Source: Eledone cirrhosa
Taxonomy: Eukaryota
Length of the DNA stretch: 64,000 nucleotides
Direction: 5' to 3'
Assembly (NCBI GenBank): GCA_964016885.1
Contig: OZ024741.1
Location: 140,864,001-140,928,000, forward strand
Shown: piece after piece, positions 1,368 through 51,995 of the stretch
Layout: each line of letters starts with the position of its first letter
Numbering within the stretch: position 1 is the first letter of the stretch
Notes under the pieces: generated by a model
What the model was told of the DNA's origin: nothing
What the model saw: only the letters and a program-made list of their open reading frames with translations
Database searches by the model: none
Position numbers and translations under genes: made by a program

Positions 1368-1560
1368 GGGCGGTGGATTGGCAGTATCGGTAGAGGGTCT
1401 GACGCCATGTTTTACAGCTAAGAGTTACATCCCTTTATTGTCTGAGTTCAAATCTCGCCGAGGTTAAGTGCGCCTTTCATCCTTACGGGGTCGATAAAAT
1501 AAAGTACCAGTAACGCACTGGGATAATTGCTGGCCTTCTGCCAAAAGTAGAAACAATTAT
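1368..1560 (+). mobile_element. tRNA-derived SINE (family A, full-length)
   Basis: A-box-like TGGCAGTATCGG, B-box-like GAGTTCAAATC, central motif GCCTTTCATCCTTACGGGGTCGATAAAATAAAGTACCAG and tail GCTGGCCTT..AAAGTAGAAACAATTAT; the same sequence recurs many times in the window. Confidence 0.8.
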
Positions 1561-2105
1561 TTCTGTATAATGACATTTCTCTCTATTTCTCAGTAGTTGC
1601 ACAAAATCTAAAATGAAGCTGTACATTAATGATGTCTTTTAAAACAGTTTCTCGATAACGGTGATGCGATCATGTAAGTATAACCAGCTTTCTAAAGTAT
1701 AACGTATTTCTATGTATAACCTGTTTCAACGTATTGCGAATACATTGAAACAGAACAATAAAACAAGAAGTTTGGTTTGTTCAATTAATGCTAAAACAAC
1801 ATTGTGCACATCAAAGATTAGAATATTGATTTCATTTACAAGGAAATATATTTCGAAATCATTTCCAGTTAATGGTTATGATTTCATATTTGAATTACTG
1901 CCTACTGAACAAGAAAATTTTGACTCGAAACCAAATGCCGAAACACAAACAATTGTTGAATTGTTTTCTGAACATGAATAATTCACACTGAGACCACTTT
2001 GTTGTGGTTTCATTAGAAATTATCAAACGGGACCACAAGTGTCAAGAGCCATTAAAAATTTCATGTTTGACACGAGACAATATATTTTCAATTAATCTCT
2101 TTCTT

Positions 2106-6999: not shown

Positions 7000-9500
7000 T
7001 ATGGGGATTCTCCTTAGTCATTTTTACTCATATGTCCGTTCTGGCCTGCGGCGGGAACCCTGTTAGGGACCCACTTATGGGTTAAATAGTCCTACTGGCA
7101 AGGTTCGACCTTCCAACACCGTGAATCTACCGACATATTTAGTAGCATCCAGCAGCCTGGAAAACTGTGCCCGATCTTCTGAGGGAGGTTTTTAAACCAG
7201 CGGCTAAGAGAAGGGCCCTCTGATGTAAAGCCTACGACCCGAGGGGCTTACTGTCACCGTCCCAGCTTGCTAGGCCAAAAGAGATTAACGCCGATGAAAA
7301 GGTTGAGGTCAGTTCAGCTGACATTGCCCTTCACATAAACTCTCCACTGCGCAGACTCAAAGGACATGTCCATGACCATCAACCACTTCAAGCCCTGTAA
7401 CGATGGAAAATGGTGAAATGGAATGTGTAAGATGATACTGGAAACTGTAGTTCCAAACCTGCATGCAATTGGTTTAGGGGTTTGGTCATCTGATGTTGAA
7501 CACAACCGACTAAGGAGCATTATCTAGGGACACTACTGCTTGCTCCTCATTGGAAGAGTTCTGGAAAAGGTGGCCTAAACAAAGCCCGTCCTTTACACCT
7601 ACCAATTGGCAAGCAGCAGACAACGAAAACCATCAAAGGAGAAAACTATACACCCAACTGCAAGAGTGTGAATGGATTGAAAATCGCATTCTGCAACATC
7701 ATAACCATGCTAGTCACATTCGACAGGAGTCGGCCAGTACCTGTATCTATTCTAGTTGCACACGAGCTTTAAGACAGAATGTTGATATTGCTGCTCTTAC
7801 TGAAGTGTCCTGTCAAGGGGAGACAGCCTACAAGAGTATGGCTCCGAATACGCTCACTACTGGTCAGGCAAACAGGCAGCATTCTGACCGCCACATCTCT
7901 ATGCGCCTCACAATAAGTAATCAAACATATAACAAACTCTTCAATGTGTACTCGTCAAGCAGATCTTACGGAAAAGAACACGTTTTACTCAGAGCACTCC
8001 TGTGGAGGGGAAGGTCATAATCGTTGACAATTTAAACTCCAGATTAGACGGAAATTCTGTAACTTGAGAGACATGGCGTTAGTAACTGCAATGAGAATGG
8101 ATACTTGCTGATGGAGTTTTGCGCAGAACATCATCGTCTAGCAGCAGGACAGTTTGAAAATATCCTAGATGCGTGCTTGTTCCAAATACTGGTACCCTAT
8201 TGATTATGTCCTGGTGCGCCGGTGTTACCTGAAAAACGTATTGTATACTTGAATGATGCCCAGTGCAGAATGCCCCCACCAACCATCGTCTCGTACACTG
8301 CAAACTCAAGCCCTACTTTAAACTCGAATCAAAGAAAGGCGTCCCTCTGCCCGATCCCCAAGAAAAGTTCTGAAATGAAAGCTGACTTCCAGACAGCTTT
8401 TCAATTGAGGCTTGAAAATGTGAGCATTTGCACAGATGACTCTTATGGAAGATCCGAAAAATACCATTCTACATACATTTGGAGAAATTCATGGGCTTAC
8501 CACAAAGAAGAACAAAGACTGGTTTGATGAAAACAACGAAGAATTTCAATAATTTCTGGTGAAGCAGAGATGCACCAGGCTCACCTACCTCAGCCGTCTT
8601 CTCCTGTGAAGACAGCTGCATTCTTCCGCAAGGTGTATAGGACCTGCATGTCAGGTCCAACGTCCTTTGAGAGGTGCAGAGAGCCAGACTCTCCTTACAG
8701 ACAGGACGTCCACATTAGGCCGTTGCTCAGAACATGTCCAGGCCCTATTCAGCACTAATCGCACTGTCCAACAACCAGTAAACGTGAAGATCGATGAGTC
8801 TTCCACCATTGATAAAACCACCAAAGTCATAGAGCAGCTGAGTAGTGGCAAGGCAGCAGGACTCGATGGAATTCCAGGCGAGATTTGGAAGCATGGGGGC
8901 CCACCACTACACGCAAAACACCACGAGCTCTTCGTATGTTGATAGGAGCAGGGCTATTTGCCACATGATTTCCGTGATGCAGTCATCATAACCTTGGGAA
9001 AGGACAAGGGGAGAAAGTCAAACTGTCGCGGGAAGAGTCCTCGCAACGATGTTACTAAAGAAATTGGTAACTACAATCGCAGAAGAACACTTCCTAGAGG
9101 GCAAATGTGACTTCAGAATCAACAGGAGCACCACAGACATGGGGGTTCTTTTAGGCAGCTCCAAGAGATGTGCCGAGAAGAAAATAAAAGGATGTACGTG
9201 GTATTTGTTGACTTGACTAAAGCATTTGATACAAGGAGCAGAAAAGGAATGTGGCAGATCATGGTAAGACTTGCCTGTCCCCCAAAGTTCCTGAACAGGT
9301 TCATCTAGCTACACGAAGTCCAGTGTATCCAAATCAAACTCAACAATGATCTCTCATAAACCTTGCCGATAATCAACGGAGTCATGCAGGGTCGCGTCTT
9401 GGCATCAGCTTTCTTAACCATTTTCGTCAGCTCATGCAGGCCACAGAAGATCTTAATACCGAGGACGGAGTCTACATCAGATATCGTTTGAAAATATCCC
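7000..9500 (+). mobile_element. decayed RTE-clade LINE (APE endonuclease + RT remnants, many frameshifts and stops)
   Basis: Translated fragments: NVDIAALTEV (APE start, ~7775), KVIEQLSSGKAAGLDGIPGEIWKHGG (8667-8942 ORF) and YVVFVDLTKAFD (~9195-9230), typical of RTE/BovB-like ORFs; boundaries approximate. Confidence 0.8.
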
Positions 9501-10121
9501 TTGGTGCCTGTCACATCGACCATCGCTGCTTGCCTATCCTAGCTGGGGTCACAGTGTCTGACACAAGCCAAAGGGTTGTCCAATGAAGTTATAGACAAGA
9601 CCAAATTTTAAGTTATAGCAATTAAGCTATAACAAGTACACATAGAATTATAATTGTATGTCACCTTAGTTTAAAAGTGTGGTGTTGTTTAAAACACGAG
9701 AGTCTCATGAATGAAATAAAGGAAAAGAAAGGAAGAAAAGTAAAGGAATTTTTTAAAAAGCAAGAAGAAAGGAAGATATCTTGTTAAAATATCTAAGCAA
9801 TTCAAGTTAAAGGAGGGAGAATACGTTCGTCACAGATTAGCAATGATAAATGTAGGAAAATTAACAGAGAGGATAGGCCAAACGAACGAAAGCAAGGCAA
9901 AACGAAAACCAATTTTTTAAATGGAAAATACAACCGAATATATATATATATATAAAGTATTAAGGATACTATTTATGGTTATGTATATAATAAAACCTTT
10001 TATAGTTATATATATTTTAAACTCTAAATAGTGAAAGACAGTAATTCATTACTATCTTATTACCAGTAAGATAAATAGCTGAATGTAATAACATCAGTTG
10101 TTTTACAGAGCAGTTATATAT

Positions 10122-11497
10122 AAATTACATGAATCAAAGTTCAGTTTAAATCATTTATTTGCTTACAATTGTTTCCTCCAAACCGAGGTTTGGATTCTTC
10201 GGAGATACTATTTAGTGATTTTTTTACATACTTGACCTCCTTTTCAACACAAGAGACATATAAAAACATATGTATATATTGACCCACAGTGGGTTGACAT
10301 TCATCATAATAATAGAGCATGGCAATTTACATACAAAGGTTACAGTCATATTAAAGGACAAAATTAAAGTTAAAATTAAAATTAAAATTAAAATAAAACA
10401 TTCGCAGTTTATGAAGATAAAGCAAGAGGAAAGTTTAGAGTAGTCAGTGTATGAAACAGTCTCACGTGTGGCATGCACGCGTGTCTTATTTATACAGGAT
10501 TATAGTGCGGCAGATTGTTACATGTAGAACAAGCAGTTAAAGCAGGCAATCAATAGCATCATGGGGGCTGTATTGTTAAAGCATTTTTCACACACACCTG
10601 TACGATATATAAGCCCGTTTGTAGAGAAACACCAAAAATATCAAAATTATAACAAATGAGAAGCAAAACAGCACCACTGTCCTCGCACCCACCATCACTC
10701 ACACAATCTAGGAAACGCAATTTATAGACTACATGTCCATCACACAATCCACGATGATTCAACACTGGCTGCCTGGTGAATCATGTTATAAATCATAGCT
10801 TGTCGTTCCTTATTTCGATTCATAGATCAGGTTGTTTTTGTTGTGAGAGATGACATAGTATTATATTCCGGAAGTGTGTGTGTGATTAAGGGGAGTTAAT
10901 GCATAAGGGGAGTTAATGCGTAAGGGGAGGTAACTAGCTGATTTTCATAGTTAAATTTATTATCTTAAAGTACATAAATGGTGTTTCAAATGAGTCCCTA
11001 TCATATAAGGTTATAAACAATTTGTAAATTTAAGAATCTTATCTATAAATTACAGTGTAGTCTATCAAGAAGTGCTAAAGGTGTTCATATCAGGATGGTT
11101 ACCTTCTATCATGGAGTGCCACAACAGAAGAGTCAGACCTCCAAATCAATGATCTATGTAAGTGTAGTCCACCCGCAGAACCTGGCAGGGTCTTATTACG
11201 ATATATGACTTCAGCTAAGCTCTGGGTCATTGTATGTCTGAATGCATGGCAAAGTTAAATATCACCAGGGTGGTCGAGAGATCAATTATCTCATACAAAG
11301 ACACTAATCTGGCCATCAAGCCATACATATACTCATAACTCGTATATCACTTGTACATAATTCATTGTACTCAGCATATAGAATATATAGCCCTTTTAAT
11401 AAATTAATTACTTAATCTTATATCTATCCCATGGTGGCACTCCATGCACAGGACAATGTTAGCACAACCAATTCAGTGCCTACAGTTTACATTAATT
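10122..11497 (-). repeat. left arm (3' pseudo-LTR) of ~1.38-kb inverted repeat
   Basis: Near-identical reverse complement of 13986-15374; the ORF track shows mirrored peptides (10224-10478 vs 15007-15273; 10559-10765 vs 14720-14926). Confidence 0.95.
10160..10205 (-). ncRNA. minimal type I hammerhead-like motif, CCGAAGA core variant (stem I weakened)
   Basis: Minus strand reads CT-CCGAAGA-a-TCCAAAC-ctcg-GTTTGGA-g-GAAA-CAATTG-TA-AG. Confidence 0.6.
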
Positions 11498-11697
11498 ATA
11501 TATTAGGGCAATGTAGTCCAAGTAATTCAAGGCAAATATACCAAAAGTAGAAGTACATGGTGATATCTCTATGGTAAAAGGTACTATGAGGGTGTCACTA
11601 TTTGCGTTGAAGTGGATTAATGGGTGTGGAGATGAGGTGTAAGGAGTGCCCCTGATGCTAGTTGCTAGAGGTGGTGTGGGGTTCAAGTCTGACATTG

Positions 11698-13985
11698 TTA
11701 TATATTGGGTTTAAAGTTTTGGAAAGAGTCTCGGAAGCGGTGTTGGCAAGACGCGCACACTTCTGATTTTTTATTAAGGAGGTTATGGTTAGAGAAGATG
11801 ATAGTATGGGTCTCTAGTAGACAGAGGTTACAAAATGTATTAGGTGGTTTGTACGATGTCGCGTTACCTATCACTTCCCATTTAAGTGTATATAGTTTAT
11901 TTTTAGTTTTTAGATAGTGTATGTAGCTAGATAGTGAAGTGGAGTTGGCTAGACTATGTTTTTTAAAAGAGTGGTGGTGCGAATTGTATCTAGTTTTGAA
12001 GCAGTTAGAAGTAGAGCCTATATAGGTTTCAGAAGAGTTGATAGTTGTGACTGTGCATGAGTATATGATATCCTTGATTAAGCATATTTTATCTAAAGGG
12101 CAGGTTCTATTTGATCTACAGTTACAATTATTCTGGATGTTAGTCTGCCGGTTATTATGTTGTGTAGAAGTCTGGATGGTAGCTATAGGGTTATGGTTAT
12201 TTGGGTTGTCGTTCCCGGCGTTAGTGTTTACACTAGTGCTATTACTATTATTTCTATTGATATTAGGGTTAGTTGTTATAATGTTATTTTGAAGGTTTAT
12301 CGTCTGTTGTGATTTAGTTTGTTGGACGTAAGAATTAATTTTTCTTTTATTGCTACTAGCTATGTAGTATGCTATGTTAGGCGTAGTAGAGTAGGAGATT
12401 TTAATAGTGTTTTTTGTTTAAAAGGCTATGGTACTTGTGGCCGGGTGGGAAGTATTTATCTTGTAGTGAGAAGAAAGCCCTAGGTAGGTTGGTAGAGACG
12501 TTTAGATTGAAAGGAGCGTTGAAAAATGTATTATTTCTACTTCTATTTTTGTTTTTTATGTCTGGTGAGTTGTTTCCTTTTCTGGTAATTTCTGTGGTGT
12601 GGGTTACTTTTGTTGGTATCATCCCTATTAGTGTGTGTGTGGTTGTTATTCTTATTACTAAATTTTCTCATGGACATGTGCGAAATAATGTTGTAGCTAT
12701 GTGTTTTTGTAGGTAGGAACTCGATCTCTATATTATGTCCTGATCTAGCTAATGCCTGATTATAATATTGTGAGTTTTTGTTAAATATGTTTACGTCATA
12801 GGATAGATTAGAGGTTCTATTAGATACTCCCTTAGAGATACAGTTTAATATAATTCTAGGGTGGTTAGACTTGGTATCTACGTAAATGAGTTTTTCATTA
12901 GGTTTGTGGAAAGGTGCATATATCATTGAGTCTAGGTAGAGGGTGGCGTCTAGGAAGTTAACGTTTTTAATGTTTTTGTCCATGGTAATACTAAGGTTAT
13001 AGTTTTTGAATGTATTGTGCAATAGTTTTCTAGTTCTTTCTATATTGAATCTTTTATAATCTATAAGTAGAAGTGCATCATCGCGGTACAAACCACCGTT
13101 GAGGTATGGAAGGTCCTTATGGATTTCGTTAAGTAAATATTGGCCGACTAAATCAGTGACCTGCGCCGAGTCACTAGACCCCATGGTTATGTCGAAGTTG
13201 TTTTGCGTATCTTTGCGGGTCCATAATTCGTCTTCAAAGGTGATTAGTGTTTTACGGGCCGCAAGTATGACATCAATCTGTGGTCTAGTCAGGTCACTAT
13301 TGTCCATGGCCATGATAAGTGCCTTATTTAATAGGATAGGGGAAATAGAGGTGTAGTAAGAATTGATATCAAATCGAATAAATTTGTTATCCTTGTTATC
13401 CTTGATATCTTTGAACCATTCAATCACTTCACCCCTATTTCCCCATTGTTTAAGGTATATCTTGTGTTTAATCTGTGGGATGATTTTATCTAAAATTTTC
13501 TCACTGATAATGCCAATGTCAGACTTGGAAGGGCAGATGAGTCTAATCGAGGGGTTGCTAATGAAGTCCTCCTTATGGTCCTTCAGAGAGAATCTAGGGG
13601 GGGGGTTAGGGTATATGGTTGTGTATGTCTATGGAGTCCTAGTTTGGACACTATATTATAGCCTTCCATATTAATATCTTCTAAGTTTTTCATAGTGGTT
13701 TTCTTGTAGCTTTTCTGTAGTTCATTATATATAAACTTTCTATAAGTATTATAATCTAGGCTGTATATGTTATTAGTTTTGTCCGCATGTACAATATTTT
13801 TATTACTAGTTTTGAAATCATTAATAGAGGTGCTAAGTTTGTTTAAGAAGGTGTTGTTTTTATTACGGTGCTTTTTGTATTTAATATTCTTAACTAGTTT
13901 TATTAGGTCATTTTCAAAGGGGTTTAGTAGTGTGTTATGAGGGGGGCTTTTAAAGGTTTTAAAGCCGAAGTAGTCAAATTTGTCA
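11698..13985 (-). pseudogene. PLE reverse transcriptase + GIY-YIG endonuclease ORF, frameshifted
   Basis: Minus-strand translation gives FDYFGFK..PFENDL, HADKTNNIY, KDHKEDF..RLICPSKSDIG, FDINSYYTSI, ITMGSSDS, GGLYRDD, then CNCRSNRTCPLDKIC..IIYSC..TYIGST..CNLCLLE..LLNKKSE..CQHR; stop at 11698-11700. Confidence 0.9.
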
Positions 13986-15374
13986 AATTAATGTAAACTG
14001 TAGTCACTGAATTGGTTGTGCTAACATTGTCCTGTGCATGGAGTGCCACCATGGGATAGATACAAGATTAAGTAATTAATTTATTAAAAGGGCTATATAT
14101 TCTATATGCTGAGTACAATGAATTATGTACAGGTGATATACGAGTTATTAGTATATGTATGGCTTGATGGCCAGATTAGTGTCTTTGTATGAGAGAATAG
14201 ATCTCTCGACCACCCTGGTGATATTTAACTTTGCCATGCATTCAGACATACAATGACGCAGAGCTTACCTGGAGTCATATATAGTAATAAGACCCTGCCA
14301 GGTTCTGCGGGTGGACTACACTTACATAGATCATTGATTTGGAGGTCTGACTCTTCTTGTAGAATGTTCTGTTGTGGCACTCCATGATAGAAGTAGAAGG
14401 TAATCATCCTGATATGAACACCTTTAGTACTTCTTGATAGACTACACTGTAATTTATAGATAAGATACTTAAATTTAGAAATTGTTTATAACCTTATATG
14501 ATAGGGACTCATTTGAAACACCATTTATGTACTTTAGGATAATAAATTTAACTATGAAAATGAGCTAGTTACCTCCCCTTACGCATTAACTCCCCTTAAT
14601 CACACACCCACTTCCGGAATATAATTCAATGTCATCTCTCACAACAAAAACAACCTGATCTATGAATCGAAATAAGGAACGACAAGCTATGATTTATAAC
14701 ATGATTCACCAGGCACCCAATGTTGAATCATCGTGGATTGTGTGATGGACATGTAGTCTATAAATTGCGTTTCCTAGATTGTGTGAGTGATGGTGGGTGC
14801 GAGGAGAGTGGTGCTGTTTTGCTTCTCATTTGTAATATTTTTGATATTTTTGGTGTTTCTCTACAAACGGGCTTATATATCGTACAGGTGTGTGTGAACA
14901 ATGCTTTAACAATACAGCCCCCATGATGCTATTGATTGCCTGCTTTAACTGCTTGTTCTACATGTAACAATCTGCCGCACTATAATCCTGTATAAATAAG
15001 ACACGCGTGCATGCCACACGTGAGACTGTTTCATACACTGACTACTCTAAACTTTCCTCTTACTTTATCTTCATAAATTGCCAATGTTTTATTTTAATTT
15101 TAATTTTAATTTTAATTTTAATTTTAACTTTAATTTTGTCCTTTAATATGACTGTAACCTTTGTATGTAAATTGCCATGCTCTATTATTATGATGGATGT
15201 CAACCCACAGTGGGTCAATATATACATATGTTTTTATATGTCTCTTGTGTTGAAAAGGAGGTCAAGTATGTAAGAAATCACTAAATAGTTGCTCCGAAGA
15301 AACCAAACCTCGGTTTGGAGGAAACAACTGTAAGCAAATAAATGATTTAAACTGAACTTTGATTCATGTAATTT
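13986..15374 (+). repeat. right arm (inverted 5' pseudo-LTR copy)
   Basis: Reverse complement of 10122-11497; joins directly to the truncated ORF. Confidence 0.95.
15289..15337 (+). ncRNA. minimal type I hammerhead-like motif, CCGAAGA core variant
   Basis: TTGCT-CCGAAGA-aa-CCAAAC-ctcg-GTTTGG-ag-GAAA-CAACTG-TA-AGCAA; stem I TTGCT/AGCAA. Confidence 0.65.
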
Positions 15375-15729
15375 CTATAATTTCTATATATATATAGTTG
15401 GGTGCGGATGCATTCATGTATATATGTGTGTGTCCGCATGTATCTGTGTGTTTCTAAATATATTGTTAATAACTCCCTCTGGTCGAGCAATCTTTGAAGT
15501 CTGGGGACAGCTGGAAAGCTTCCATTACTCATACTTCTCGCCTTCTTCACCCCCTCTTCTGCGGCCTCGATATAAATACCCCCTCCGCCTCCGTGGTATT
15601 TTCTTCGGGGTTATAAGAGGCTTAGCTCTGTTTCTCGACCGTTATATCGCGTGACTGTCTCCCCCTCCGCCTTTTGGGATTCTTTCTCACGTCGTGTAGA
15701 CGCGTTCTTGAGACTAGTAAAATGAGGTA

Positions 15730-15819
15730 TCCTCTTGATAAGTCGGCAGACCTCGCAAGGACTCTATATCTTTATGATATATTGTTTTTGTTTATGCCAC
15801 GAAACTACGTAGTCGAGGA
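15730..15819 (+). ncRNA. type I hammerhead ribozyme, U3-A8 variant
   Basis: TCCTC-TTGATAA-GTcGGCA..TGCCAC-GAAAC-TACGTA-GTC-GAGGA; predicted cleavage after C15814. Confidence 0.8.
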
Positions 15820-16324
15820 ATTTAGGAGCAGTTTAGGTATGATACATTTTATTACTAATTATATCTAAATGTTTCTTCTCTCTTCATAATGTATTTTTAA
15901 CTCTGATACTGGTTCAGTCTAGTTCAACTGAATTGGTCTGTCCCAGTCATTCATTGAGCAACATCGGTGAAGTTGGCACCCTTAACTCACAGTTGGGTGC
16001 GGATGCATTCATGTATATATGTGTGTGTCCGCATGTATCTGTGTGTTTCTAAATATATTGTTAATAACTCCCTCTGGTCGAGCAATCTTTGAAGTCTGGG
16101 GACAGCTGGAAAGCTTCCATTACTCATACTTCTCGCCTTCTTCACCCCCTCTTCTGCGGCCTCGATATAAATACCCCCTCCGCCTCCGTGGTATTTTCTT
16201 CGGGGTTATAAGAGGCTTAGCTCTGTTTCTCGACCGTTATATCGCGTGACTGTCTCCCCCTCCGCCTTTTGGGATTCTTTCTCACGTCGTGTAGACGCGT
16301 TCTTGAGACTAGTAAAATGAGGTA

Positions 16325-16414
16325 TCCTCTTGATAAGTCGGCAGACCTCGCAAGGACTCTATATCTTTATGATATATTGTTTTTGTTTATGCCACGAAAC
16401 TACGTAGTCGAGGA
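16325..16414 (+). ncRNA. type I hammerhead ribozyme, U3-A8 variant (second tandem copy)
   Basis: Same motif 595 bp downstream; predicted cleavage after C16409. Confidence 0.8.
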
Positions 16415-16532
16415 ATTTAGGAGCAGTTTAGGTATGATACATTTTATTACTAATTATATCTAAATGTTTCTTCTCTCTTCATAATGTATATATATATATA
16501 TATAAATTCGGAACAAAATAATATTTGGTTTC

Positions 16533-16680
16533 ATAATTGTTTCTACTTTTGGCACAAGGCCAGCAATTAGCCAGTACATCACTGGTACTTTATTTTATCG
16601 ACCCCGTAAGGATGAAAGGCAAAGTTAACCTCGGCGGGATTTGAACTCAGAATGGCAAGGGCCGTAACTCTATGCGTCAA
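16533..16680 (-). mobile_element. tRNA-derived SINE (family A)
   Basis: Reverse complement of the 1368-1560 element (CTGGTACTTTATTTTATCGACCCCGTAAGGATGAAAGGC..GATTTGAACTC). Confidence 0.8.
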
Positions 16681-17749
16681 TGCCGTCTTAACTAGTTAGA
16701 TATATATCTATTTCATATTGCTTCAAGTATCCCAGATGGTTTACGTTAAATGTTCTACAGTCTTGTATCTGTCTAATATCTATTAGCACAACCCTACGTC
16801 ACAATACAATTTCATTTCTTCCGTACGGTTGTCAAAATTATATTGATGATATTTTTCTTTTTGTTTTGTATTCTGACCTTATTACTTTTTACGTTTCAAA
16901 GTGTGTTTCTGAATCTTCCATAGAATTACGTTAAATGCACGTATTCCTGTGGAAGCCTTACCGATTTACACGTTAATTTTATGAGCAGACTCTTCCATTG
17001 GTCGCAAAACTAGTATTTACTTTATACCCGACGGAGGTTCATTCCATACATTCAAACGATAATCATCTCCGCCGAATGCAGTCTACTGTAATGTTTCCAA
17101 TAAACAACTTGCTATCTGTTACTGTTAATACATTTCATTTTCATCACCATCTCTATTTCATTATCACCAGATACTTTATCCTCGTTAGGCACATTTATTC
17201 ATATCTTGATTGAGATTCACTATTGTGTGTAATTTTTGTCTTTTTTTTCCTTTTCAGCAGCGATTCATAATTACATCTCTGTCGATTCCATTTTCTTTTA
17301 GAGATACACACAACTATAATACTCGTTAATGTTTGAAATTATAAAAATTCGGAACTGAATTCGTTGACTTTTTTTATTCGGCGATATCTAACGTTAATAT
17401 AATTATGTGCCGTCAAATCCCCGTTACTAGAGAACTATGTATCGATATATGTTTGATAACAAAAAGCGTAATAGAATATATATGCGATTCAATCAATAAT
17501 GCATATAATTATTAGCATTTTATAGTAAGAATTTTCCAATGAATCTCTGATATAAATCTATATCTTGACGAAAGGCTTTGTATTTTTTGTGTGATTTGCA
17601 TGTGCTTTATTTAATTCTTATGGGTGATGTCTACGTAATTTAATTATTAAGATATACTAGATATCTTTATGTGAAATCCAACAATTAAAGTTCCATAAAA
17701 TATTTTATATTAGAGCAATCCTTTCAATACACTGTATATGCTTGAAAAT

Positions 17750-17947
17750 TGGTTTCTAATTTAGGCACATGACCAGGAATTAGAGAGAAAGGGAAGTCAA
17801 GTAGATCGACTCTAGCACTTGACTAATACTTTATTTTATTGACCAGCAAAGTTGATCTCATCGGCACTTAAACGCAGTATGTAAATAGCCGGAAAATAAC
17901 GCAAAATATTTCGTCCGACGCTCTAGCGCTTCCACCAATCCACTGCC
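17750..17947 (-). mobile_element. diverged SINE (family A-related)
   Basis: TTTCTAATTTAGGCACA..TACTTTATTTTATTGAC..CTCATCGGCACTTAAAC..CAATCCACTGCC. Confidence 0.55.
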
Positions 17948-18131
17948 AAAAATACTTTGGAATGCTGATATCTAATTTAAGCAAAAGGCTAGTAATTTAA
18001 GCCCAGAATGTAAAGAGCTAGAACAAACATTGCAATGGCATTTTATCAGATGCTCTGTTAACTTTGCCAATCCAACACCTATGAATTTAAATAATGATTA
18101 CCATATCGTCTGTCTCTATTGAATAATATTA

Positions 18132-18185
18132 AAATGCCAAGCTATATTCATAAATCATTTTATTTATGAATATAGCTTGGCATTT
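18132..18185. repeat. perfect 24-bp inverted repeat with 6-nt loop
   Basis: AAATGCCAAGCTATATTCATAAAT-catttt-ATTTATGAATATAGCTTGGCATTT. Confidence 0.9.
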
Positions 18186-19283
18186 ATCATGACCATTATG
18201 TCGCCTCCATTTTTCGATCGCTAAGGACTCTATAAAACAATATAAAACGGTTATGTCTTAATGTCACTTTAATCAGACTGGCTCCAAAGTTTCACATTCG
18301 ACCGATTAAAATAATTCCTTATATGAATAAGTTGGGCAAGGGGGTATAAGGAAATAGAGCACAGAGAATAGAAAATATTCCAATCGATCCTTTCATTGCT
18401 GATACTATCTTTCAATGACATCTCCCAGCAGAAACGTCATCGCTTATTTGGTGAGACGTGGGCGTGAGGATTTGAACTCAAAAGGCACAGAACTAGACCA
18501 AATACTGCAAATCATCATGTCTTACTCATTACAAATTTCGCAAGTGCTTCGCCCATGGTCTATTATTGTATTTATAGATTTCGAAAATTATTAACAATGT
18601 TTCAGGACTCTGTCCCCATGCCCTTCAAGAAGAAGAAGAAGAAATAATGGAAAGGAAGTTGGAATCGATAGAATTTGATCGAAGAAAGCAAGGAATTGGA
18701 ACAAAGTAACATGTATTCGGATATGAATGCATTAGCAGTAGAGTAGATTTTGTTATTGTCTAATGCAGCTACCATTGGTTTTCATACATGTACACATATT
18801 AGCAAATCACTCATTCCTTCAAACAAGATTAATATTCAAACGTTTGTATTCTAAATATATGTTGTCTTCTGTTAGCATATGCCAGTTATTTCGGTTATTA
18901 GAACCTCTCTCCGGAGAAATACGTGAGATATTTCAGTACCTCATGAAAATATGTTCTAGAATGACGACGTAGAGTAAATCAACAAAACGACAGGCAATTT
19001 GTAAAAACAAAAACACGTCAAAAGTTAATTATAGAACATTTAGAAGATGAGAGAATACAATTTAAGAAATCTTGATAGAATGAAATTGAAGTGTGGTATC
19101 ATGTGATTAAAAAACGTAACTAAAAGATGTAATTACTTGAAAAACGACCACCACTAAAAAGTGTGAGAATTGAAGCAATTGCGGCAGTATCATGGGAGCG
19201 TCATATCGAATGCATTTGTTTATGCGTGTTAGCTTTCTGAGGTCTGCGTTCAAATCCTGTCGAGGCTAACCTCGCATTTTGTC

Positions 19284-19325
<42 letters not shown>

Positions 19326-19457
19326 CAGATTAAAGTTTAAGCAAATAATCGCTGCTTTCACCCTTAACGGGAACTTAAGAAGTTCTACAGTTTTCTATAT
19401 TTTTATATATATATTATCCTTATCAAGTCCTCTTCGGATTTTAGTCTTCACAGTTAT

Positions 19458-19459
<2 letters not shown>

Positions 19460-19514
<55 letters not shown>

Positions 19515-19550
19515 TGTATATGTATATATATATATATATATAATGATATA

Positions 19551-19636
<86 letters not shown>

Positions 19637-19670
19637 TATATATATATATAATTATATATATATATATATA

Positions 19671-19706
<36 letters not shown>

Positions 19707-19707
19707 C

Positions 19708-19746
<39 letters not shown>

Positions 19747-19892
19747 ATTATATATATATATATAATTATATATATATATATAATTATATATATATATATA
19801 TATATATAATTATATATATATATATAATTATATATATATATATATAATTATATATATATATATATAATTATATATATAATTATATATATATA

Positions 19893-19952
<60 letters not shown>

Positions 19953-20070
19953 TATATATATATATAATTTTATATATATAATTATATATATATATAATTA
20001 TATATATATATATATAATTATATATATATAATTATATATATATACATATAATTATATATATATATATAAT

Positions 20071-20101
<31 letters not shown>

Positions 20102-20277
20102 TTATATATATATATATATATAATTATATATATATATAATTATATATATATATAATTATATATATATATAATTATATATATATATATAATTATATATATA
20201 TATATAATTATATATATATAATTATATATATATATATATAATTATATATATATAATTATATATATATATATATAATT
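19460..20277. repeat. (TA)n microsatellite with periodic AATT interruptions
   Basis: Direct inspection. Confidence 0.95.
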
Positions 20278-20326
20278 ATGAAATATATGAAATATAAGAA
20301 TTAAAGAACTGTTCAAAACATGTTTG

Positions 20327-20373
20327 TGCTTACAGCTGTTTCCTCCAAACCGATGTTTGGATTCTTCGGAGCA
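20327..20373 (-). ncRNA. minimal type I hammerhead-like motif, CCGAAGA core variant
   Basis: Minus strand: TGCT-CCGAAGA-a-TCCAAAC-atcg-GTTTGGA-g-GAAA-CAGCTG-TA-AGCA. Confidence 0.65.
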
Positions 20374-20604
20374 ATTTATTAATGAATGGACAGTTATATG
20401 ACCTCCTTTCAGCCAAGAGACATACAGATACATATGCAAATATTGTGGGTCAACATTCACTACAGCATTTAGAGTGGCAGTACACACTTCGAGATTACAT
20501 TCATATTAAAAGGTACAATCAAAAATCAAAAATACAGGTTAAAATACAACATGAAAATAAGCGGTTATATAGTGCAAATGTTATATGTGCATTCATTAAT
20601 AAAT

Positions 20605-20651
20605 TGCTCCGAAGAATCCAAACCTCGGTTTGGAGGAAACAGCTGTAAGCA
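20605..20651 (+). ncRNA. minimal type I hammerhead-like motif, CCGAAGA core variant
   Basis: TGCT-CCGAAGA-a-TCCAAAC-ctcg-GTTTGGA-g-GAAA-CAGCTG-TA-AGCA. Confidence 0.65.
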
Positions 20652-20856
20652 TAAAAATGTTTTGAACAGTTCTTTGATTCTTATATTTCATATAACTGCT
20701 CTGTAAATCATCTGATGTTTTTTTACATTGAGCTACTTAACTTACTGGTAATGCCTACCACTATTTAGGGTTTGTATAAAAAAAATACATATAACTGCAA
20801 AAGGATTTTGTATTTACATAACCATAAATAGTATAATTAATACTATATATATAATT

Positions 20857-24400: not shown

Positions 24401-24490
24401 AGGGGGAGTGATTTTATCAGGAATCCGTGGAAAATTCATATATATAAAATGAGTCCCCGGAAATGAAAATCTTGGAAACAACTGGTATAT

Positions 24491-24580
24491 ATAATTGTTT
24501 CTACTTTTGGCACAAGGCCATCAATTACCCAGTACATTACTGGTACTTTATTTTATCGACCCCGTAGGGATGAAAGGCAA
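24491..24580 (-). mobile_element. SINE family A, 3' fragment
   Basis: Near-identical to 16533-16620. Confidence 0.75.
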
Positions 24581-29084: not shown

Positions 29085-29242
29085 TTTGCGAGGCATTGGA
29101 TTGAATGACACGTTACTTGTTCCTGCTCTCAAATCCCGCCGAGGTTGACTTTGCCTTTCATCCTTACGGGGTCGATAAAATAAAGTACCAGTAATTCACT
29201 GGGTAATTTGCTGGCCTTGTGCCTAAAGTAGAAACAATTATA
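29085..29242 (+). mobile_element. SINE family A
   Basis: CAAATCCCGCCGAGGTTGACTTTGCCTTTCATCCTTACGGGGTCGATAAAATAAAGTACCAG..AGTAGAAACAATTAT. Confidence 0.8.
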
Positions 29243-32011
29243 TTCTGATTTCAACCCCCCCCCCCCCACGTTAAATTTGTTTTGCATCTTTTCGTCTTCC
29301 ATAAATAGTAGAATTATTACAGTCGAACCAGATGGTCTGCAGCATCTGATCTCGTTCTGTGAGTTTAAATCTCACCCTCCTCTTCCAGGAGTTGTGACTG
29401 TATTCTATTAAATGACAATATCTGCCTGAACCACAGTTCTGGATTGGAAGTATTGGTAAAGCGTCGAATAAAATGTCATTGTGGGAGTTGTTCTAGCCTT
29501 TTATATTCTGAATTTATATCACACCTATATCAATGTTGCCTCCATCCGAACTTGCTGGCCTCCGCCTAATTTAGAAATCGATATATGCCTGTTTACATAG
29601 AAATATCACAAAATATACTTGGATATATTGAGAAATTTAGTTCAATGTGCGTTCACACTGAAATCCAATGTTAAAATATATAGATTTTCTTTTTTTTATT
29701 AAGTGCCAAGATGTGTTGAGATATATTCCATCAATACTACTACAAATTCTGCAGAACAGTGCCAATATAGAAACCACAAGCCATTCTTCTCTAACAGATT
29801 TGTCATGACAATCCCACCTTACTGCCAGATGTATTTCATAAAGAACCATGTTATCTAATATATTATTCCGCTTTTGGTTTGAAGTGTACTTGACTACTAT
29901 TTCTAGTTGATCTATAGACCAATTAAAGGCTCCCACGTAAATTCGGACGCATTTAAGTTTAACGAACACATTTCTAATACGGTGGATAAAAATACATTTC
30001 TTTCGTTAACACACATTCATTGTTTTTCTAATTAAAGGCACTGCCAATGATTTTCAAATAACATTGACAGTAATCATCGATTAACACGGACATCGTAATA
30101 TACGTATTTCTCATATTTTTAAGTTGGTGTTAGTAGTAGAACATAATTGTTTTGTATTATTGAAACAAGGGATGGGGAGGGTCAGGCGTTTTGGGTCAAA
30201 TGTATTCATGGATTTCTCTTCTATGTTGTGATATAACACCAAAAGGAAACCATTTGAATTGTTCCTGTTGATTATAGTATCCATGAGACCATAGCTCATT
30301 ATAAAGTCGTAGGGTCACCGACGTCGCATGTTAAGCCTATAGAAGCCCATTTCCCTTCCTGAGTGAGCACAACAAATTTTTCAGTGAGCGAGAGGGAGGG
30401 CGCGAAAAAGAAATGTAGAGACAGAATCGACCCTCGTGCTGAATTGGTACCTAATCTAGCAACCTCTAACGGCATTTGAACTCAGAGCACAGATAACTGG
30501 GAGAAATACTTCAAAGTATTCTATCAAACATTCTAGTTACTGCATATTTACTGCCTGCGTTGTTTCTATAATATTCCAAATTAACGTTTTACTGTGATTG
30601 GGGACTGCGTGATTCATATTATGTAAATAAATGTAAATAACTGTAATGTATATAGCAACTAAGCGCCGAATATTTTACAGATTACAATATTCCCAGAATG
30701 CAATGATAGGCGAGTTTAAAGTGCCTGCGAACGTGTATATACATTACCTGCTTAAATAGAAAGATTACGTATCTTCCAGAAGCTACTCAGTAGTGAAGAG
30801 GTTCCCCTTCCCCAGCCCTTATCTGCAGTATAATATTTCTTGCATACCTAAGAGAATGATGGACTGTTTTGAAATATATCCACATAATTAGAACTTTTTT
30901 ACAAAATTTTATAATGACGAAACTTAGTCATAATTTGCTCTGATCCCTTTGAAATTTACTGCAATATACCCGCTTGATGTCAGCACCCTTCTCTTGTTTC
31001 TATTTCAAAGCAATTGTAAGTATATGTTTAAGTCATTAAGAATTACTCGCTTGTTTTAAAAGATAGGTTAGTTGTAGAGTATCATATAAATCAAATATTT
31101 TAAATGAATTCTAGTGTTTGTTGCACACATATCACTTAAATTTATAACATTATAATTAATTGGGAAATTACTAGGAACCTACACTTATTTCGAACTTCCG
31201 AAAAAAAAAATCAAATAATCACAAAAACTGAGAACTATCCTGTATTTGTTGTAGGGTTAACCGTTTGATTTTGTCGTTTAGCAAGTTGGCTTCATAAAAT
31301 GTGTAACGTCAAAGGAATCACATAGATAATAAACAATAAGCACAAAAAGCGATTTAGATCTATAAATGAATATAATCATTCAACTGGGGCACCATTTACA
31401 AACATTTAGTCGACCATATTCATCCCTATACCTATTTCAATATGGTTCATATTTTACACTAATCGATACGCAGGTTCTAGATAACGAAAAAATATTTAAG
31501 TCAATGAGCTAGCTATATTTTCCCAATAGGTTAAAGAAAGTTAAACGCATTGCCTCGCATGCAAATTAATAGATACAAGCCGTGGAACTTCCCTTTACCA
31601 TTGCATGGTCTGAAATAACCTCTGTTCCTCTCCAACAGATTTATAGCCAGTTTCTTTTTTATTTAATAGACAGGTTGATATGTTACTTGATAAAATACTA
31701 TGTAGCCTTTAATTGAGTCCATCAATTTCTGTGTGTATTAACTGTAACATAACTTTTCGACAAATATGTATCGATGAAATATGTACCAGGTCTGACGTAA
31801 GAAGGTATTTAGTCGATATAATTAATTTCAATGTGATGTTTCATCACAAATACAAACTGATGACTGATACAACTAAAAGGATAACGAAAATATGGAGAGT
31901 TTTATGAAAATACATACCATCACTGGAAAACTAGAAACCTCAGTAATTTCAACCCACTAATGATTCTGGCAATTCATGCCTTACTAGTAATAACATCAAT
32001 TATGTCTATAG

Positions 32012-32460
32012 TGAATTGGCTATATCGGTAGAGGGTCGAACGCCATGCTTTACAGCATAGAGTTACGGCCCTTTATGATCTGAGTTCAAATCCCGTCGAG
32101 GTTAACTTTGCCTTTCATCCTTACGGGATCGATAAAATAAAGTACTAGTCACGTACTGAGGTTGATTTAATTGCTGGCCTATATCAGAAATAATTATTCG
32201 CAGTATCGGTGGAGGGTGTGACGCCATGCTTTCCAGCATAGTTACGTCCCTTTACGATCTGAGTTCAAATCCCGCCGAGGTTGACTTTGCCTTTCATCCT
32301 TACGGGGTCGATAAAATAAAGTACCAGTAATGCACTGGGTAATTGCTGGCCTTGTGCCTGAAGTAGAAACAACTATTTCTATAGTCGATAAAATAAAGTA
32401 CCGGTAATGCGCTGGGATAATTGTCGGCCTTGTGCCAAAAGTAGAAATAATTATTTCTAT
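32012..32460 (+). mobile_element. two tandem SINE family A copies plus a duplicated 3' tail
   Basis: Copies at ~32012-32198 and ~32199-32383; tail repeated at 32384-32460. Confidence 0.85.
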
Positions 32461-32524
32461 AGTCCTCCTTAACAGCACTATTTAAGGTAAAGCTGAAAAT
32501 CTTCTGTGAAATAGTATTTATTAT

Positions 32525-47483: not shown

Positions 47484-50400
47484 ATTCTCTTTTACTCTTT
47501 TACCTGTTTCAGCCATCCGGCTGAGGCCATGCTGGGGCACCGCCCTTGTTGCTACACATTTTATCTCCAGCCTCTATAATTTGGCCACTGGTGTAAGAGG
47601 GAGTTTGTTGCTGCTGACCTTTGGTTTCCCTCGTGTCTTGTTGTGGGCTCATCCGGGATCCTGGATAACAAGTTGTCGAGATGTTTCTTAAAGACCTCCA
47701 CCTCCATGTCATGCAAGTCTCTATGATGCCTCGGCAGCATGTTGAAGAGTTGAGGGCCCTTGAATCCCAGGCTATTGCAATACCTGCTCCTTATTCTAGA
47801 TGTGGAAGACGGGATCTTTGGCACCACACAGTGACGTCCTGTTCGACGGTTGGTCCAGCTCCCAATGCAAAAGTTTGGTGCTAGTCTCTCCAGGATTTTC
47901 CACATGTAGATCACTGCGTATCACTCCCGTCTTCGCACCAAGGAGTAGAGGTTCAGTTCCTTTAGCCTCTCCCAGTAGCTTGTCTCCCTCATCTTGGCAA
48001 TCCTCTTGGTGTAGCTTCGCTGGATTGCCTCAAGCTCCGTGGTTAGTTTGACACTATGGAGTGACCACAACTGGGAGCAGTAGTCCAGGCGGCTTAGGAC
48101 AAAAGTCCTCCACAGTATCAACATGGTATCTCGATCTCTTGTCCGGAAAGTCCTCAAGATCCAGCCAGCAAGTCGTCTGCACGTTGTCGCCACTTTCATG
48201 ATGTGTGAAGAAAAAGATGCATCATCGTTCATGTCTATGCCCAGGTCTCGTATCGATTTTGACACGGGGATATCGGTCCCTCCTGGTCCTGTGTAGCTGT
48301 GTTCCACTATATTTGTCTTTGCAGGTTTGTATTGTAGGGCTTGGAATTTGCCAGCATTAAACTGCATGTTGTTTTCTTCCGCCCATCTGTATATGGCATC
48401 CAGATCCTGCTGTAAAAGGGCAGCGTCAGCCGGGTTTTTGATTGCCTGTGCTACCTTAGTGTCATCAGCATAGCTAGTGAGGGATGTTGTTGCATGCACC
48501 ACAGAGGGCATGTCCGAGAGAGCCACCAAAAACAGTAGTGGTCCCAGGACTGTCCCCTGGGGCACCCCACTTGTTATCGGTGTTTCCTTCGAGAGGGCCC
48601 CATTTGCTGCGACTGCCTGGCTTCTCTCCCTTAGGAAGCCATGCAGCCACTCACCTACTTTTCCAGTTATGCCGAGTCCGTGTAGTTTGTGACATATCAT
48701 TCCGTGGTCGACCTTGTCAAAGGCCTTCGCAAAGTCAAGATATATCACGTCCACATGTGAGCTGTCTAGTAGTTGTCTCAGTACCCAGTTGTAGTGATGT
48801 AGCAGCTATGTAAGGCAGCTTCTTCCTGGGCGGAAGCCATGTTGCGTGTTAGTCAGGCGGTCATTTTCTTCGAGGAAAGTGATTAGTTTCTTTCTGACGA
48901 CTCGCTCCATGACCTTACTGATATGCGACGTCAGGGAGACTGGCCTATAGTACTTGGCCTCCGCTCTACTACCTCCTTTATGGATAGGGCATATTATGCC
49001 TTCTTTCAGCTCCCTGGTTAGTACACCGCTAGCCAAGGAGCTTCTGAAGAGCATCTTCAGTTGAGTTGATAAGGCCCGCTTACATATTTTTAAGAGAACT
49101 GCTGGGAATCCATCAGGTCCAGCAGCCGAGTCTGTTCTAATTTCATCAATGGCGTACACCACATCCTCCTCCGTTATGTCTATGTGGTTGATGGTTGCCA
49201 TTTCTTGATGTAGTGTTGTGGCATCAAAGAACTCCTCTGGCTTCGTTATTTGCATGTGCCTCAGTGGACATGTGAAGACACTTTTGTACTGTTCGTTCAG
49301 TATTTCACATATCTCTTGGGGGTTTTCGGTTAATGAACCGTCCGTGTGGAAGAGTGGCCCAATCTTGCAGAGTACGGAGGCAGTTTCTTTTGCAAATTTA
49401 AAGAAGGCCTTAGGGTTTGTTATAATGTTTTCTATGGCCCTGTTCTCTTTCTTTGCCCTCTCATTCTCATGTGAAAGTTTGAGTGCAATCTCGGTGTCAA
49501 GTAGTGCACGTTTCAAATAGGATTCATTCTTGTTTTTGTTTTGTTGACTATTCAACTGGTTTGAGAGTTTAGTTCTACGTCTCATAAGGATTTTCCTATC
49601 TCTGGGAATAAGATTTTTGTGTCTGTTTGCCTCTTTCTCCGGGACAAACCTTTTGCATATAGCGTGTATCATTGTCATGAAGTGTTGAAATTGTGTGTTA
49701 GTGTCTTGTGTGGCGGTGTTTTCACTCCATGTTTGCTTCCAGATTTCACTCTTAATCTTTTTCCAGTTAGCCTTGTAGAAGTTAAGGCTGGATAGCGTCC
49801 CGGAGCTTCTTGGTGGTTTTGTCTCTGTTGGTTCTCTTGGACCACATATCATTAGCTCTACTAAGTTATGATTCGAGAGAATTGTTGGTGTCACCTTTAC
49901 ATTGTGAATGAGCCCTTCGTTGTTTGTAAAACAGAGGAGTATTGCTTGCTCCATGAACAGCCTGTGTGTGAGGGCCAGCAGGGATTCCGTCTGTCTCTGT
50001 TCTATTGACGTCGTTCCAGGGAGGAGGTGGCCCTCAGGCCATTTGACCTTTGGTAGGTTGAAGTCTCCCAGCAGTAGGATGTTGAGACCCTGGTCCAGTT
50101 TGTCAAGGACCTCTTCTATCCTACTTAGGCTATCCTCAAATTTACCCTCATGACTGGGGGCATCGGGCGGCCGATATGTGACACATATTACTGTCTGTAG
50201 TTGCTTCATATGTATTATCAGTGTGTCACAGACTGAGTTTGAATGTGTCAACAGTACAATTGGTGTGACATCTTCACGGATATAGAGAGCAACCCCACCA
50301 TGAGTTCTCTCCTTCCTGTCCGAACGAAATACAGTATATTTCGGTATATGTATTTCTGCATCTGCTATACTGTTTGTCAGGTGCGTTTGGGTTAGTGCCA

Positions 50401-50567
50401 TGCATAGTGCTTGATTGCTTATGGCTAAGTCTCTCAGGTAGGACATTTTACTCATGTTACTGAGTTTCACCAGGCCTCTGACATTCAGCAGCAGCACTGT
50501 TGTGACTTTTGGGGTGCCAGTAATGGCTGTCGGTATGACACCTGGTCTGGTGTCAGCGCGGCCACTT
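47484..50567 (-). mobile_element. CR1-group LINE, 5'-truncated just upstream of ORF2, inserted in (TA)n
   Basis: APE and RT domains, short 3' UTR ending TGGCTGAAACAGGTAAAAGAGTAAAAGAGAAT, (TA)n on both sides. Confidence 0.9.
47561..50497 (-). pseudogene. LINE ORF2 (APE endonuclease + reverse transcriptase) with two in-frame stops
   Basis: ORFs 48806-50497, 47921-48754 and 47561-47914 share one frame; motifs LNVRGL, GGVALY, YRPP, GDFN, YRPVSLTS, QHGFR, YLDFAKAFD, GVPQGTVLGP, YADD, RDLG. Confidence 0.92.
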
Positions 50568-50573
50568 ATATGT

Positions 50574-51222: not shown

Positions 51223-51456
51223 GCAAATGTTCTATTTAAAATTGTTGGGATACAACAAGTAAATATTTTATAACTGATATAAAGCACTCGACAAGTTTTT
51301 GGATTAGATATACGATATTAATAAATGGAAACTATATTTATAAAACCATATTTATTTCATTATATATATTTCAGGGATACCAAATTAAAATATGGTATGC
51401 CTTCATCAGACAAAATACAATATATAAACAGTTTTATAAATAATTTTGACGTACCC
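51223..51456 (-). mobile_element. ~230-bp hammerhead-bearing interspersed repeat (family C), copy 1
   Basis: Homologous to 52308-52521(+) and 54622-54864(+). Confidence 0.8.
51353..51417 (-). ncRNA. minimal type I hammerhead ribozyme (canonical core)
   Basis: Minus strand: TATTTTGT-CTGATGA-AGGcATACCA..TGGTATcCCT-GAAA-TATATA-TA-ATGAAATA. Confidence 0.75.
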
Positions 51457-51492
51457 TATTAAATGCAACCATTATTTTCGGAAGCTGTCTGG

Positions 51493-51525
<33 letters not shown>

Positions 51526-51531
51526 ATAGAG

Positions 51532-51764
51532 AGAGAAAATTGAGGTTGGTAATGGCACATGGAATATATAAGAGACAGAATACTTCTTTGTGAAAAAACA
51601 TATAATTTTATAAGGTAAGGAAATAATAAAGGGTATAAAAAATGACCGGTTTCGATGGGTCTGCAAAAGCTATTTCCTTACCTTATAAAATTATATGTTT
51701 TTTCACAAAAAAGTATTCTGTCTCTTATATATTCCATGTGCCATTACCAACCACAATTTTCTCT
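51532..51764. repeat. ~94-bp inverted repeat with a half-hammerhead in the spacer (PLE-end remnant)
   Basis: Arms 51532-51625 and 51671-51764; the minus strand of the spacer has GAAACCGGTC (51644-51653). Confidence 0.75.
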
Positions 51765-51795
51765 ATAACCTTCGTTTTGTGTAGAAAATTACACT

Positions 51796-51858
<63 letters not shown>

Positions 51859-51862
51859 ATTA

Positions 51863-51909
<47 letters not shown>

Positions 51910-51995
51910 ATATATATATATTATATTTATATATTATATTATATATATATATATATATTATATATATATATTATATATATTATATATATATATAT

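What the first reader, a model, noticed from the sequence alone, without database searches (positions are those of the whole stretch)
10160..20651. Four hammerhead-like motifs with a non-canonical CCGAAGA core and a co-varying palindrome
Seen: copies at 10160-10205(-), 15289-15337(+), 20327-20373(-) and 20605-20651(+) all read CCGAAGA instead of CUGANGA (U4 to C). They have an A/G apposition at the base of stem II, then GAAA-C-NNNN-G-UA. The stem III segment is CAGCTG in two copies and CAATTG in another, a double change that keeps the palindrome (the 15.3-kb copy has CAACTG). Flanks of the 10/15-kb and 20-kb subfamilies have diverged visibly while the motif is kept. Established: U4 is normally highly conserved. 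Inference: a conserved, possibly dimer-dependent hammerhead variant that standard descriptors would miss. I cannot verify whether it has been described.
Basis: partly seen in the sequence, partly recalled or inferred. Interest (0 to 1): 0.75.

Follow-up and report, generated by a model that had tools for sequence, protein, structure and literature searches.

The report
Penelope retroelement hammerhead with C4 core
The four motifs are the ends of two insertions of a jumping gene whose hammerhead-shaped RNA motif carries C instead of the textbook U at one core position in thousands of copies, so it is an inherited variant rather than decay and likely cuts itself only slowly and in pairs, which is untested.

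Summary
The four motifs exist as described. They are the mirror-image arms of two insertions of a Hydra-clade Penelope-like retrotransposon (PLE), not four independent sites. C4 is the family state: 3,909 of 3,938 exact genomic matches read CCGAAGA. The 29 CTG copies are fewer than the 49 CpG-mirror mutants. Intact 4.2-kb copies carry the motif in both pLTRs. Related elements elsewhere have U4 (39 of 77 loci; C4 in 1), so C4 is derived. The palindrome forms AAUU, AGUU (599 copies) and AGCU (1,991) spread, while AACU did not (12). That fits pairing possible only in a dimer. The usual G10.1-C11.1 pair is also lost. Dimeric hammerheads in PLE ends are published, and U4C is published as a slowed viroid variant. 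I found no paper on a C4-fixed PLE family, but could not read the most relevant one. This scan has noted C4 hammerheads before, in this genome and in others (at least 5 in all). Cleavage is untested. Selection for C over U is not shown: one old subfamily spread with both. Verdict: new variant of a known kind, moderate interest.

The parts
10160..10206 (-). Minimal type I hammerhead motif, C4 core, loop III AAUU; stem I damaged; predicted cut after 10164
15290..15336 (+). Hammerhead motif in the inverted arm, C4 core, private AACU loop III and a broken first stem II pair; predicted cut after 15332
   Evidence: AACT form has 12 genomic matches
20327..20373 (-). Hammerhead motif, C4 core, loop III AGCU; predicted cut after 20331
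20605..20651 (+). Hammerhead motif, C4 core, loop III AGCU, core identical to the youngest subfamily; predicted cut after 20647
9956..13985 (-). Insertion A, main arm: 5'-truncated Hydra-clade Penelope-like element with 3' UTR, hammerhead and long tail, ending in (TA)n
   Evidence: 85% identity over 2415 bases to the intact copy L086, 78% over the pLTR; tail ends 209 nt past the predicted cut
11698..13987 (-). Broken ORF of insertion A (RT followed by GIY-YIG endonuclease), residues 58-819 of the intact protein in three frames, with a gap
   Evidence: (GIY-YIG E 0.0087, below the Pfam cut-off)
13986..15380 (+). Insertion A, inverted 5'-truncated arm with the short end (about 48 nt past the predicted cut)
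   Evidence: 94-96% identity to 10117-11497
20284..20589 (-). Insertion B, short-ended arm of a fold-back stub inside (TA)n
20586..20846 (+). Insertion B, long-tailed arm
20698..20733 (+). Tail hairpin about 50 nt downstream of the predicted cut, kept across subfamilies
   Evidence: read; the matching hairpin folds in L086 and L047; tails

Best explanation
The motifs are the hammerhead motifs in the terminal repeats (pLTRs) of a Hydra-clade Penelope-like retrotransposon lineage that inherited a U4-to-C core change and likely still self-cleaves, slowly and only as a dimer. Shown: the element, the C4 consensus, the young intact copies with two same-sense motifs about 4.2 kb apart, and the palindrome changes. 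Inferred: in a read-through transcript of a tandem copy the two 8-nt palindromes pair with each other and complete stem III, and the RNA is cut after GUA (GUC in older subfamilies), probably with help from the element's protein. Inferred: C4 and the lost G10.1-C11.1 pair slow the cut, and this is tolerated because new copies are made from RNA not cut at this site. The four window copies are inverted arms, two of them decayed, and are probably not where cleavage happens.
For: Element: intact 832-codon frames (819 aa from the first Met) flanked by the motif at 4.17-4.20 kb spacing in L085, L086 and L087; Hydra-clade motifs present. C4 inherited: 3,909 of 3,938 matches are CCG; CTG 29 against CpG-mirror CCA 49; older subfamilies CCG 965, CTG 142, CCA 39; U4 rows are scattered over the copy tree (23 changes for 27 rows, 130 of 500 shuffles as low). 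Dimer: loop III AGCT 1,991, AGTT 599, AACT 12; AGTT and AACT are mirror images as DNA but only AGUU pairs as RNA; the tree nests AGCT inside AGTT inside AATT; the co-fold minimum for AGCU copies is the intermolecular 8-bp stem III (-35.3 against -23.6 kcal/mol for two monomers). Cleavage signature: N17 is A in 61, C in 53, T in 1 and G in 0 of 115 copies, with any base allowed; stem II shows an A-U/G-C double change. Uncut template: 0 of 115 copies run into a simple repeat within 20 nt of the cut; 64 do so 40-79 nt and 41 do so 140-239 nt beyond it. PMC11167929 (section 3) reports a PLE hammerhead that cleaves only with protein and is not needed for insertion in vitro. PMC3088659 reports that U4C lowers activity in vitro yet permits viroid infectivity.
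Against: No cleavage data. A mutational scan of a type III hammerhead reports low activity for changes in the CUGA turn other than the C3/G8 swap (PMC9901934, passage; I did not see a U4C value). Two departures together (C4, and A.G, C.A or U-A instead of G10.1-C11.1) may abolish cleavage. Covariation rests on two pairs only; on 14 distinct rows, pairs with a double change were 2 against a shuffled 2.2 (410 of 500 as high), though cells with one were 7 against 3.1 (4 of 500). The 599:12 contrast reflects one or a few founder events, not 611 independent ones. Core invariance across my 11 subfamilies is partly circular, because copies were found with patterns that demand the core. For the AAUU and AACU window copies the co-fold minimum is not the full dimer hammerhead.
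Confidence: 0.65

Rival explanations
1. The fold is kept but no longer cuts. The palindrome and stems serve RNA dimerisation or protein binding during reverse transcription, and C4 is a catalytic loss that does not matter.
For: Two core departures at once; copies include the whole motif and 45-230 nt beyond it; cleavage was dispensable for insertion in vitro in another PLE; Naiad PLEs spread without canonical hammerheads (PMC8557442).
Against: N17 switches between C and A and is never G in 115 copies; G5A mutants stay at background while U4 copies spread in one old subfamily (1 against 21 of 57); summed contig depth in two DNA runs peaks over the motif, so it is the most shared part of the pLTR.
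Confidence: 0.25
2. C4 is actively favoured as a brake: a fast U4 ribozyme would destroy the template, so selection keeps C4 although it sits in a CpG whose decay restores U4.
For: C4 is the commoner state in every subfamily counted genome-wide across flanks about 65% alike; other hammerhead families in the same genome keep U4 (94 of the first 100 listed of 15,088 matches); earlier scan notes report C4 families in at least 5 genomes (unchecked).
Against: One old subfamily spread with both states (35 C4, 21 U4, 1 G5A of 57; both inverted U4 pairs have U4 on both arms). A flank column is invariant across the 11 subfamilies 25-43% of the time (20 of 79 upstream, 17 of 40 downstream), so persistence of one base needs no selection.
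Confidence: 0.2
3. The four motifs are decayed copies of a canonical CUGA hammerhead.
For: Two of the four window copies do carry private damage elsewhere in the motif.
Against: 99% of exact matches and all intact young elements examined have C4.
Confidence: 0.01

Closest known systems
Minimal type I hammerheads (min-HHR) in pLTRs of metazoan Penelope-like elements (Cervera and De la Pena 2014, PMC4209133; read parts 1-2 of 4 and supplement file 2, part 2 of 3)
   Same: Place in both pLTRs, short stem I, 7-bp stem II, short palindromic stem III, predicted dimer, inverted pairs 100-700 bp apart, low expected activity.
   Different: C4 instead of U4 (no CCGA core in the supplement text searched; its descriptor is cuganga); no G10.1-C11.1 pair, which that paper calls highly conserved.
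Hydra clade of C-terminal-endonuclease PLEs (Craig et al. 2021, PMC8557442; read section 11, passages, supplement parts 52-53 of 59)
   Same: RWR (RWK there), DKT, CxCX5C linker, CxxC and CxH in the endonuclease, (TA)n targets, hammerhead near the 3' end. Three of the 6 consensus sequences I read also have U opposite U at the base of stem II.
   Different: All 6 of 6 consensus sequences I read there have a CTGA core; this family is longer (4.2 kb against under 3 kb) and has C4.
U4C hammerhead variant of a viroid (Ambros and Flores 1998; not held, seen only as a title and through PMC3088659)
   Same: Same core change; reported to lower activity in vitro but to suffice in vivo.
   Different: There a sequence variant in a viroid hammerhead (recalled: peach latent mosaic viroid); here the consensus of a retrotransposon lineage, in a minimal dimer-type motif.
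Protein-assisted hammerhead of the Anolis Poseidon element PAc (PMC11167929; read section 3 part 2 and passages)
   Same: PLE hammerhead; two fixed copy ends defining a tail; copies made from uncut RNA.
   Different: Other PLE clade; there the motif overlaps the ORF start, here it lies about 255 nt upstream of the first Met; the tail here is about 160 nt, not 30-40; no C4 reported in what I read.

Membership tests
Penelope-like element, EN+ | Single ORF with RT followed by GIY-YIG endonuclease | tested here: met
   819-aa ORF with YRDD at 354 and IY..YVG at 698; Pfam support is weak (GIY-YIG E 0.0087 below cut-off; none for the whole protein); 285 relatives at E<=1e-10, none of the 120 listed named as PLE
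Penelope-like element, EN+ | pLTRs from partial tandems, inverted 5'-truncated arm, optional tail | tested here: met
Hydra clade of PLEs | RWK, DKT, CxCX5C linker, CxxC and CxH motifs, (TA)n target | tested here: met
   RWR 38, ADKT 122, CNCRANRTC 678, CNLC 776, CQH 804 against section 11; (TA)n flanks
Hydra clade of PLEs | Placement in the Hydra clade of an RT tree | not tested
   No tree with reference PLE proteins was built; assignment rests on motifs
Hammerhead ribozyme (type I, minimal) | Three-stem junction with C3-G8, G5, A6, A9, G12, A13, A14, A15.1-U16.1, H17 | tested here: met
Hammerhead ribozyme (type I, minimal) | U4 in the CUGA turn | tested here: not met
   C in 3,909 of 3,938 exact matches
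Hammerhead ribozyme (type I, minimal) | G10.1-C11.1 first pair of stem II | tested here: not met
   A.G in 5, U-A in 5, C.A in 1 of 11 subfamily majorities
Hammerhead ribozyme (type I, minimal) | Palindromic stem III that pairs in a dimer | tested here: met
   by sequence and folding only
Hammerhead ribozyme (type I, minimal) | Site-specific self-cleavage after NUH | not testable with these tools
   needs an in vitro assay or raw RNA reads
Rfam hammerhead families | Match to a covariance model | tested here: not met
   no hammerhead family among 12 matches (9900-19200) and 5 matches (20280-20840) up to E 10

The most novel reading that the evidence does not exclude
C4, together with the loss of G10.1-C11.1, is a selected brake: Penelope-like elements repeatedly evolve a throttled, dimer- and protein-gated hammerhead so that their RNA stays uncut long enough to be copied. 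The old subfamily that spread with both U4 and C4 would then be a natural paired test of what PLE hammerheads are for.
Probability: 0.2. Interest if true: 0.7.

Novelty: new variant of a known kind. Interest (0 to 1): 0.42.

Why it matters
Why Penelope-like elements carry hammerheads is still open (PMC8557442; PMC11167929). A young, successful family with a supposedly fixed core base changed shows that fast canonical cleavage is not needed to spread. It offers ready natural pairs (C4 against U4; AAUU, AGUU, AGCU against AACU) to measure how much cleavage and dimer pairing matter. It also shows a blind spot: at least 4,870 C4 matches here (3,909 plus 965) are invisible to Rfam and to the descriptors I read.

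Tried and rejected
No RNA holder was listed, so expression and cut ends were not examined. Contigs of four runs show no listed change at position 4; the two runs labelled as other organisms are thin (X4) or have no listed piece over that base (X6), so they say nothing on other species. A single-protein scan of metagenomes found no relative; the alignment scan did. No solved structure matched the ORF by sequence. My first assignment to the Neptune clade was dropped after reading the Hydra criteria. The Pfam hit of one ORF fragment to a delta-endotoxin domain (below cut-off) is taken as chance. The probability computed for core invariance is not used as evidence because the search patterns demanded the core. 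Papers not held: Lunse et al. 2017 and Ambros and Flores 1998. Searches for the variant in print: hammerhead + U4C, 1 paper; hammerhead, CCGA, uridine turn, at least two terms, 11 papers; CCGANGA, CYGANGA, CCGAUGA, CCGAAGA, hammerhead, at least two terms, 29 papers, 20 listed; none of the listings showed a C4 PLE family. A search of earlier findings by this sequence found nothing.
Full report
Observation. The four motifs are in the sequence as described. Each reads stem I, CCGAAGA, A, a 7-bp stem II, G, GAAA, C-NNNN-G-U, A, stem I. The predicted cut follows 10164 (-), 15332 (+), 20331 (-) and 20647 (+). My strict descriptor gives 0 hits in the reversed and in the complemented window. Rfam lists no hammerhead up to E 10 in either region.

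Context. Self-comparison of the window shows two insertions. Insertion A has a main arm on the minus strand (9956-13985) with a broken RT plus GIY-YIG frame (11698-13987) and an inverted arm (13986-15380) that is 94-96% identical to it. Insertion B is a fold-back stub (20284-20846) inside (TA)n. In both, the two motifs face opposite ways. A single transcript therefore holds one sense motif only, and the arms would pair with each other as a long hairpin (inference). The window is part of a 3.0-Gb assembly, an animal by its repeats (inference).

The element. Of 10 genomic stretches fetched, 3 (L085-L087) hold an unbroken 832-codon frame (819 aa from the first Met) with the motif in both flanking repeats, 4.17-4.20 kb apart on the same strand, and repeats 98-100% alike. 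The family is young. The protein has RWR, ADKT, YRDD, CNCRANRTC, IY..YVG, CNLC and CQH, which matches the Hydra clade as defined in PMC8557442 section 11. I first took it for Neptune; earlier scan notes pointed to Hydra and I tested that on motifs. No reference tree was built.

Is C4 inherited or decay? Exact 32-nt pattern with C or T at position 4: 3,938 matches, of which 29 have T. The mirror CpG change (G5A) has 49, so the T copies are background. Older subfamilies, found with a looser pattern: 965 C4, 142 U4, 39 G5A. On a tree of 107 of 113 copies with positions 4-5 masked, U4 rows need 23 changes for 27 rows and are no more clustered than shuffles (130 of 500; U4 rows were sampled on purpose and the bootstrap had not settled). 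One result cuts against a simple story: U4 is in excess over G5A in the older set (142 against 39, p 6e-15), and one subfamily has 35 C4, 21 U4 and 1 G5A of 57 with both inverted U4 pairs concordant (tallied by eye). U4 sources existed there. Another old subfamily shows only background (91, 6, 3 in the first 100 of 354).

Is C4 derived? Among 77 metagenome loci encoding relatives at 30-42% identity, a strict descriptor blind to position 4 found 16 sense-strand hits in 15 loci, all U4, with 0 in controls. A relaxed one found 47 U4 hits in 39 loci, 1 C4 hit, 2 other hits, and 1 hit in controls of twice the length. All 6 Hydra consensus sequences that I read in the supplement of PMC8557442 have CTGA. 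Other hammerhead families in this genome keep U4 (94 of the first 100 of 15,088). So C4 arose in this lineage.

Dimer. In one molecule the four middle bases of the 8-nt palindrome can only be a loop; the central two can pair only between two motifs. Counts with the same 31-nt frame: AGCT 1,991, AGTT 599, AACT 12; AATT was not counted genome-wide but is the majority in 9 of 11 subfamilies. AGTT and AACT are reverse complements, so DNA-level mutation should not favour one, but only AGUU pairs as sense RNA (self-duplex -3.4 against -1.0 kcal/mol; AGCU -11.1, AAUU -6.4). The tree nests AGCT inside AGTT inside AATT, the usual path through a G.U step. This is one path, not many events, and the pair count on 14 rows is modest.

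Second departure. The first pair of stem II is A.G, U-A or C.A in the 11 subfamily majorities, never G-C. PMC4209133 calls G10.1-C11.1 highly conserved; PMC3088659 notes a tolerated U-U there, and 3 of the 6 Hydra consensus ends have U opposite U. The cuganga descriptor fails on C4. The CYGANGA descriptor in PMC13481778 allows C4 but demands GNN-NNC next, so it fails too.

Mechanism. Shown: structure, inheritance, spacing and copy ends. Of 115 copies, none runs into a simple repeat within 20 nt of the cut; 64 do so 40-79 nt and 41 do so 140-239 nt beyond it. So the copied RNA was intact across the motif (inference), as reported in vitro for PAc, whose hammerhead cleaves only with protein and is dispensable for insertion (PMC11167929). 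Inferred: tandem copies give transcripts with two motifs that pair through the palindrome and cut slowly after GUA or GUC. N17 is A, C or once T and never G, and contig depth peaks over the motif, which favours kept catalysis over a relic. I put slow dimer cleavage at 0.65 and a non-cleaving fold at 0.25. Selection for C over U, which is compatible with slow cleavage, I put at 0.2, since flank columns are often invariant by chance (20 of 79 and 17 of 40) and U4 also spread.

Novelty. Minimal palindromic dimer hammerheads in pLTRs are known (PMC4209133; review PMC6765202, passages). U4C is known from a viroid (PMC3088659; the original paper was not held). Three searches showed no C4-fixed PLE family, but Lunse et al. 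2017 on PLE hammerhead variants could not be read, nor supplement file 1 of PMC4209133, and either may bear on this. The scan itself has 11 notes with these words in at least 5 genomes, one from this genome; they are unchecked and are not counted as support. Verdict: new variant of a known kind, interest 0.42.

Noticed in passing
window 20698-20733 (+); L086 about 8856-8889; L047: A hairpin about 50 nt downstream of the predicted cut (GCTC...GAGC closing) is kept in young and old subfamilies with changes that keep pairing; similar letters follow the hammerhead in published Hydra consensus ends. It may be the protein-binding or RT start signal. A second depth peak lies just after it (L086 8892-8923).
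   Followed up: partly
G000, old subfamily counted: 35 C4, 21 U4 and 1 G5A among 57 matches, and both inverted U4 pairs agree on both arms: U4 source elements existed beside C4 ones. Another old subfamily shows 91, 6 and 3 in the first 100 of 354.
   Followed up: partly
G000 genome-wide: 15,088 matches (141 for the reversed control) to other minimal hammerhead families ending CGAAACGTH; 94 of the first 100 listed have U4. Their elements were not examined.
   Followed up: no
L107, near 2928: One metagenome relative carries a well-paired CCGAAGA hammerhead: a possible independent C4, single copy seen.
   Followed up: no
window 47921-50572 (-): Fragments of a non-LTR retrotransposon: endonuclease/phosphatase and RT domains in two frames.
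   Followed up: no
window 15397-16489 and 60537-61934: A roughly 600-base unit in tandem at both places, 97-100% alike, inserted right after the short end of insertion A.
   Followed up: no
window 1373-1567, 16533-16675, 24489-24580, 29129-29247, 32011-32464: A short interspersed repeat family with at least six copies, 80-96% alike.
   Followed up: no
window 51223-54863 and 51532-51764: Nested inverted repeats around (TA)n tracts, including a 230-base fold-back; possibly another fold-back element.
   Followed up: no
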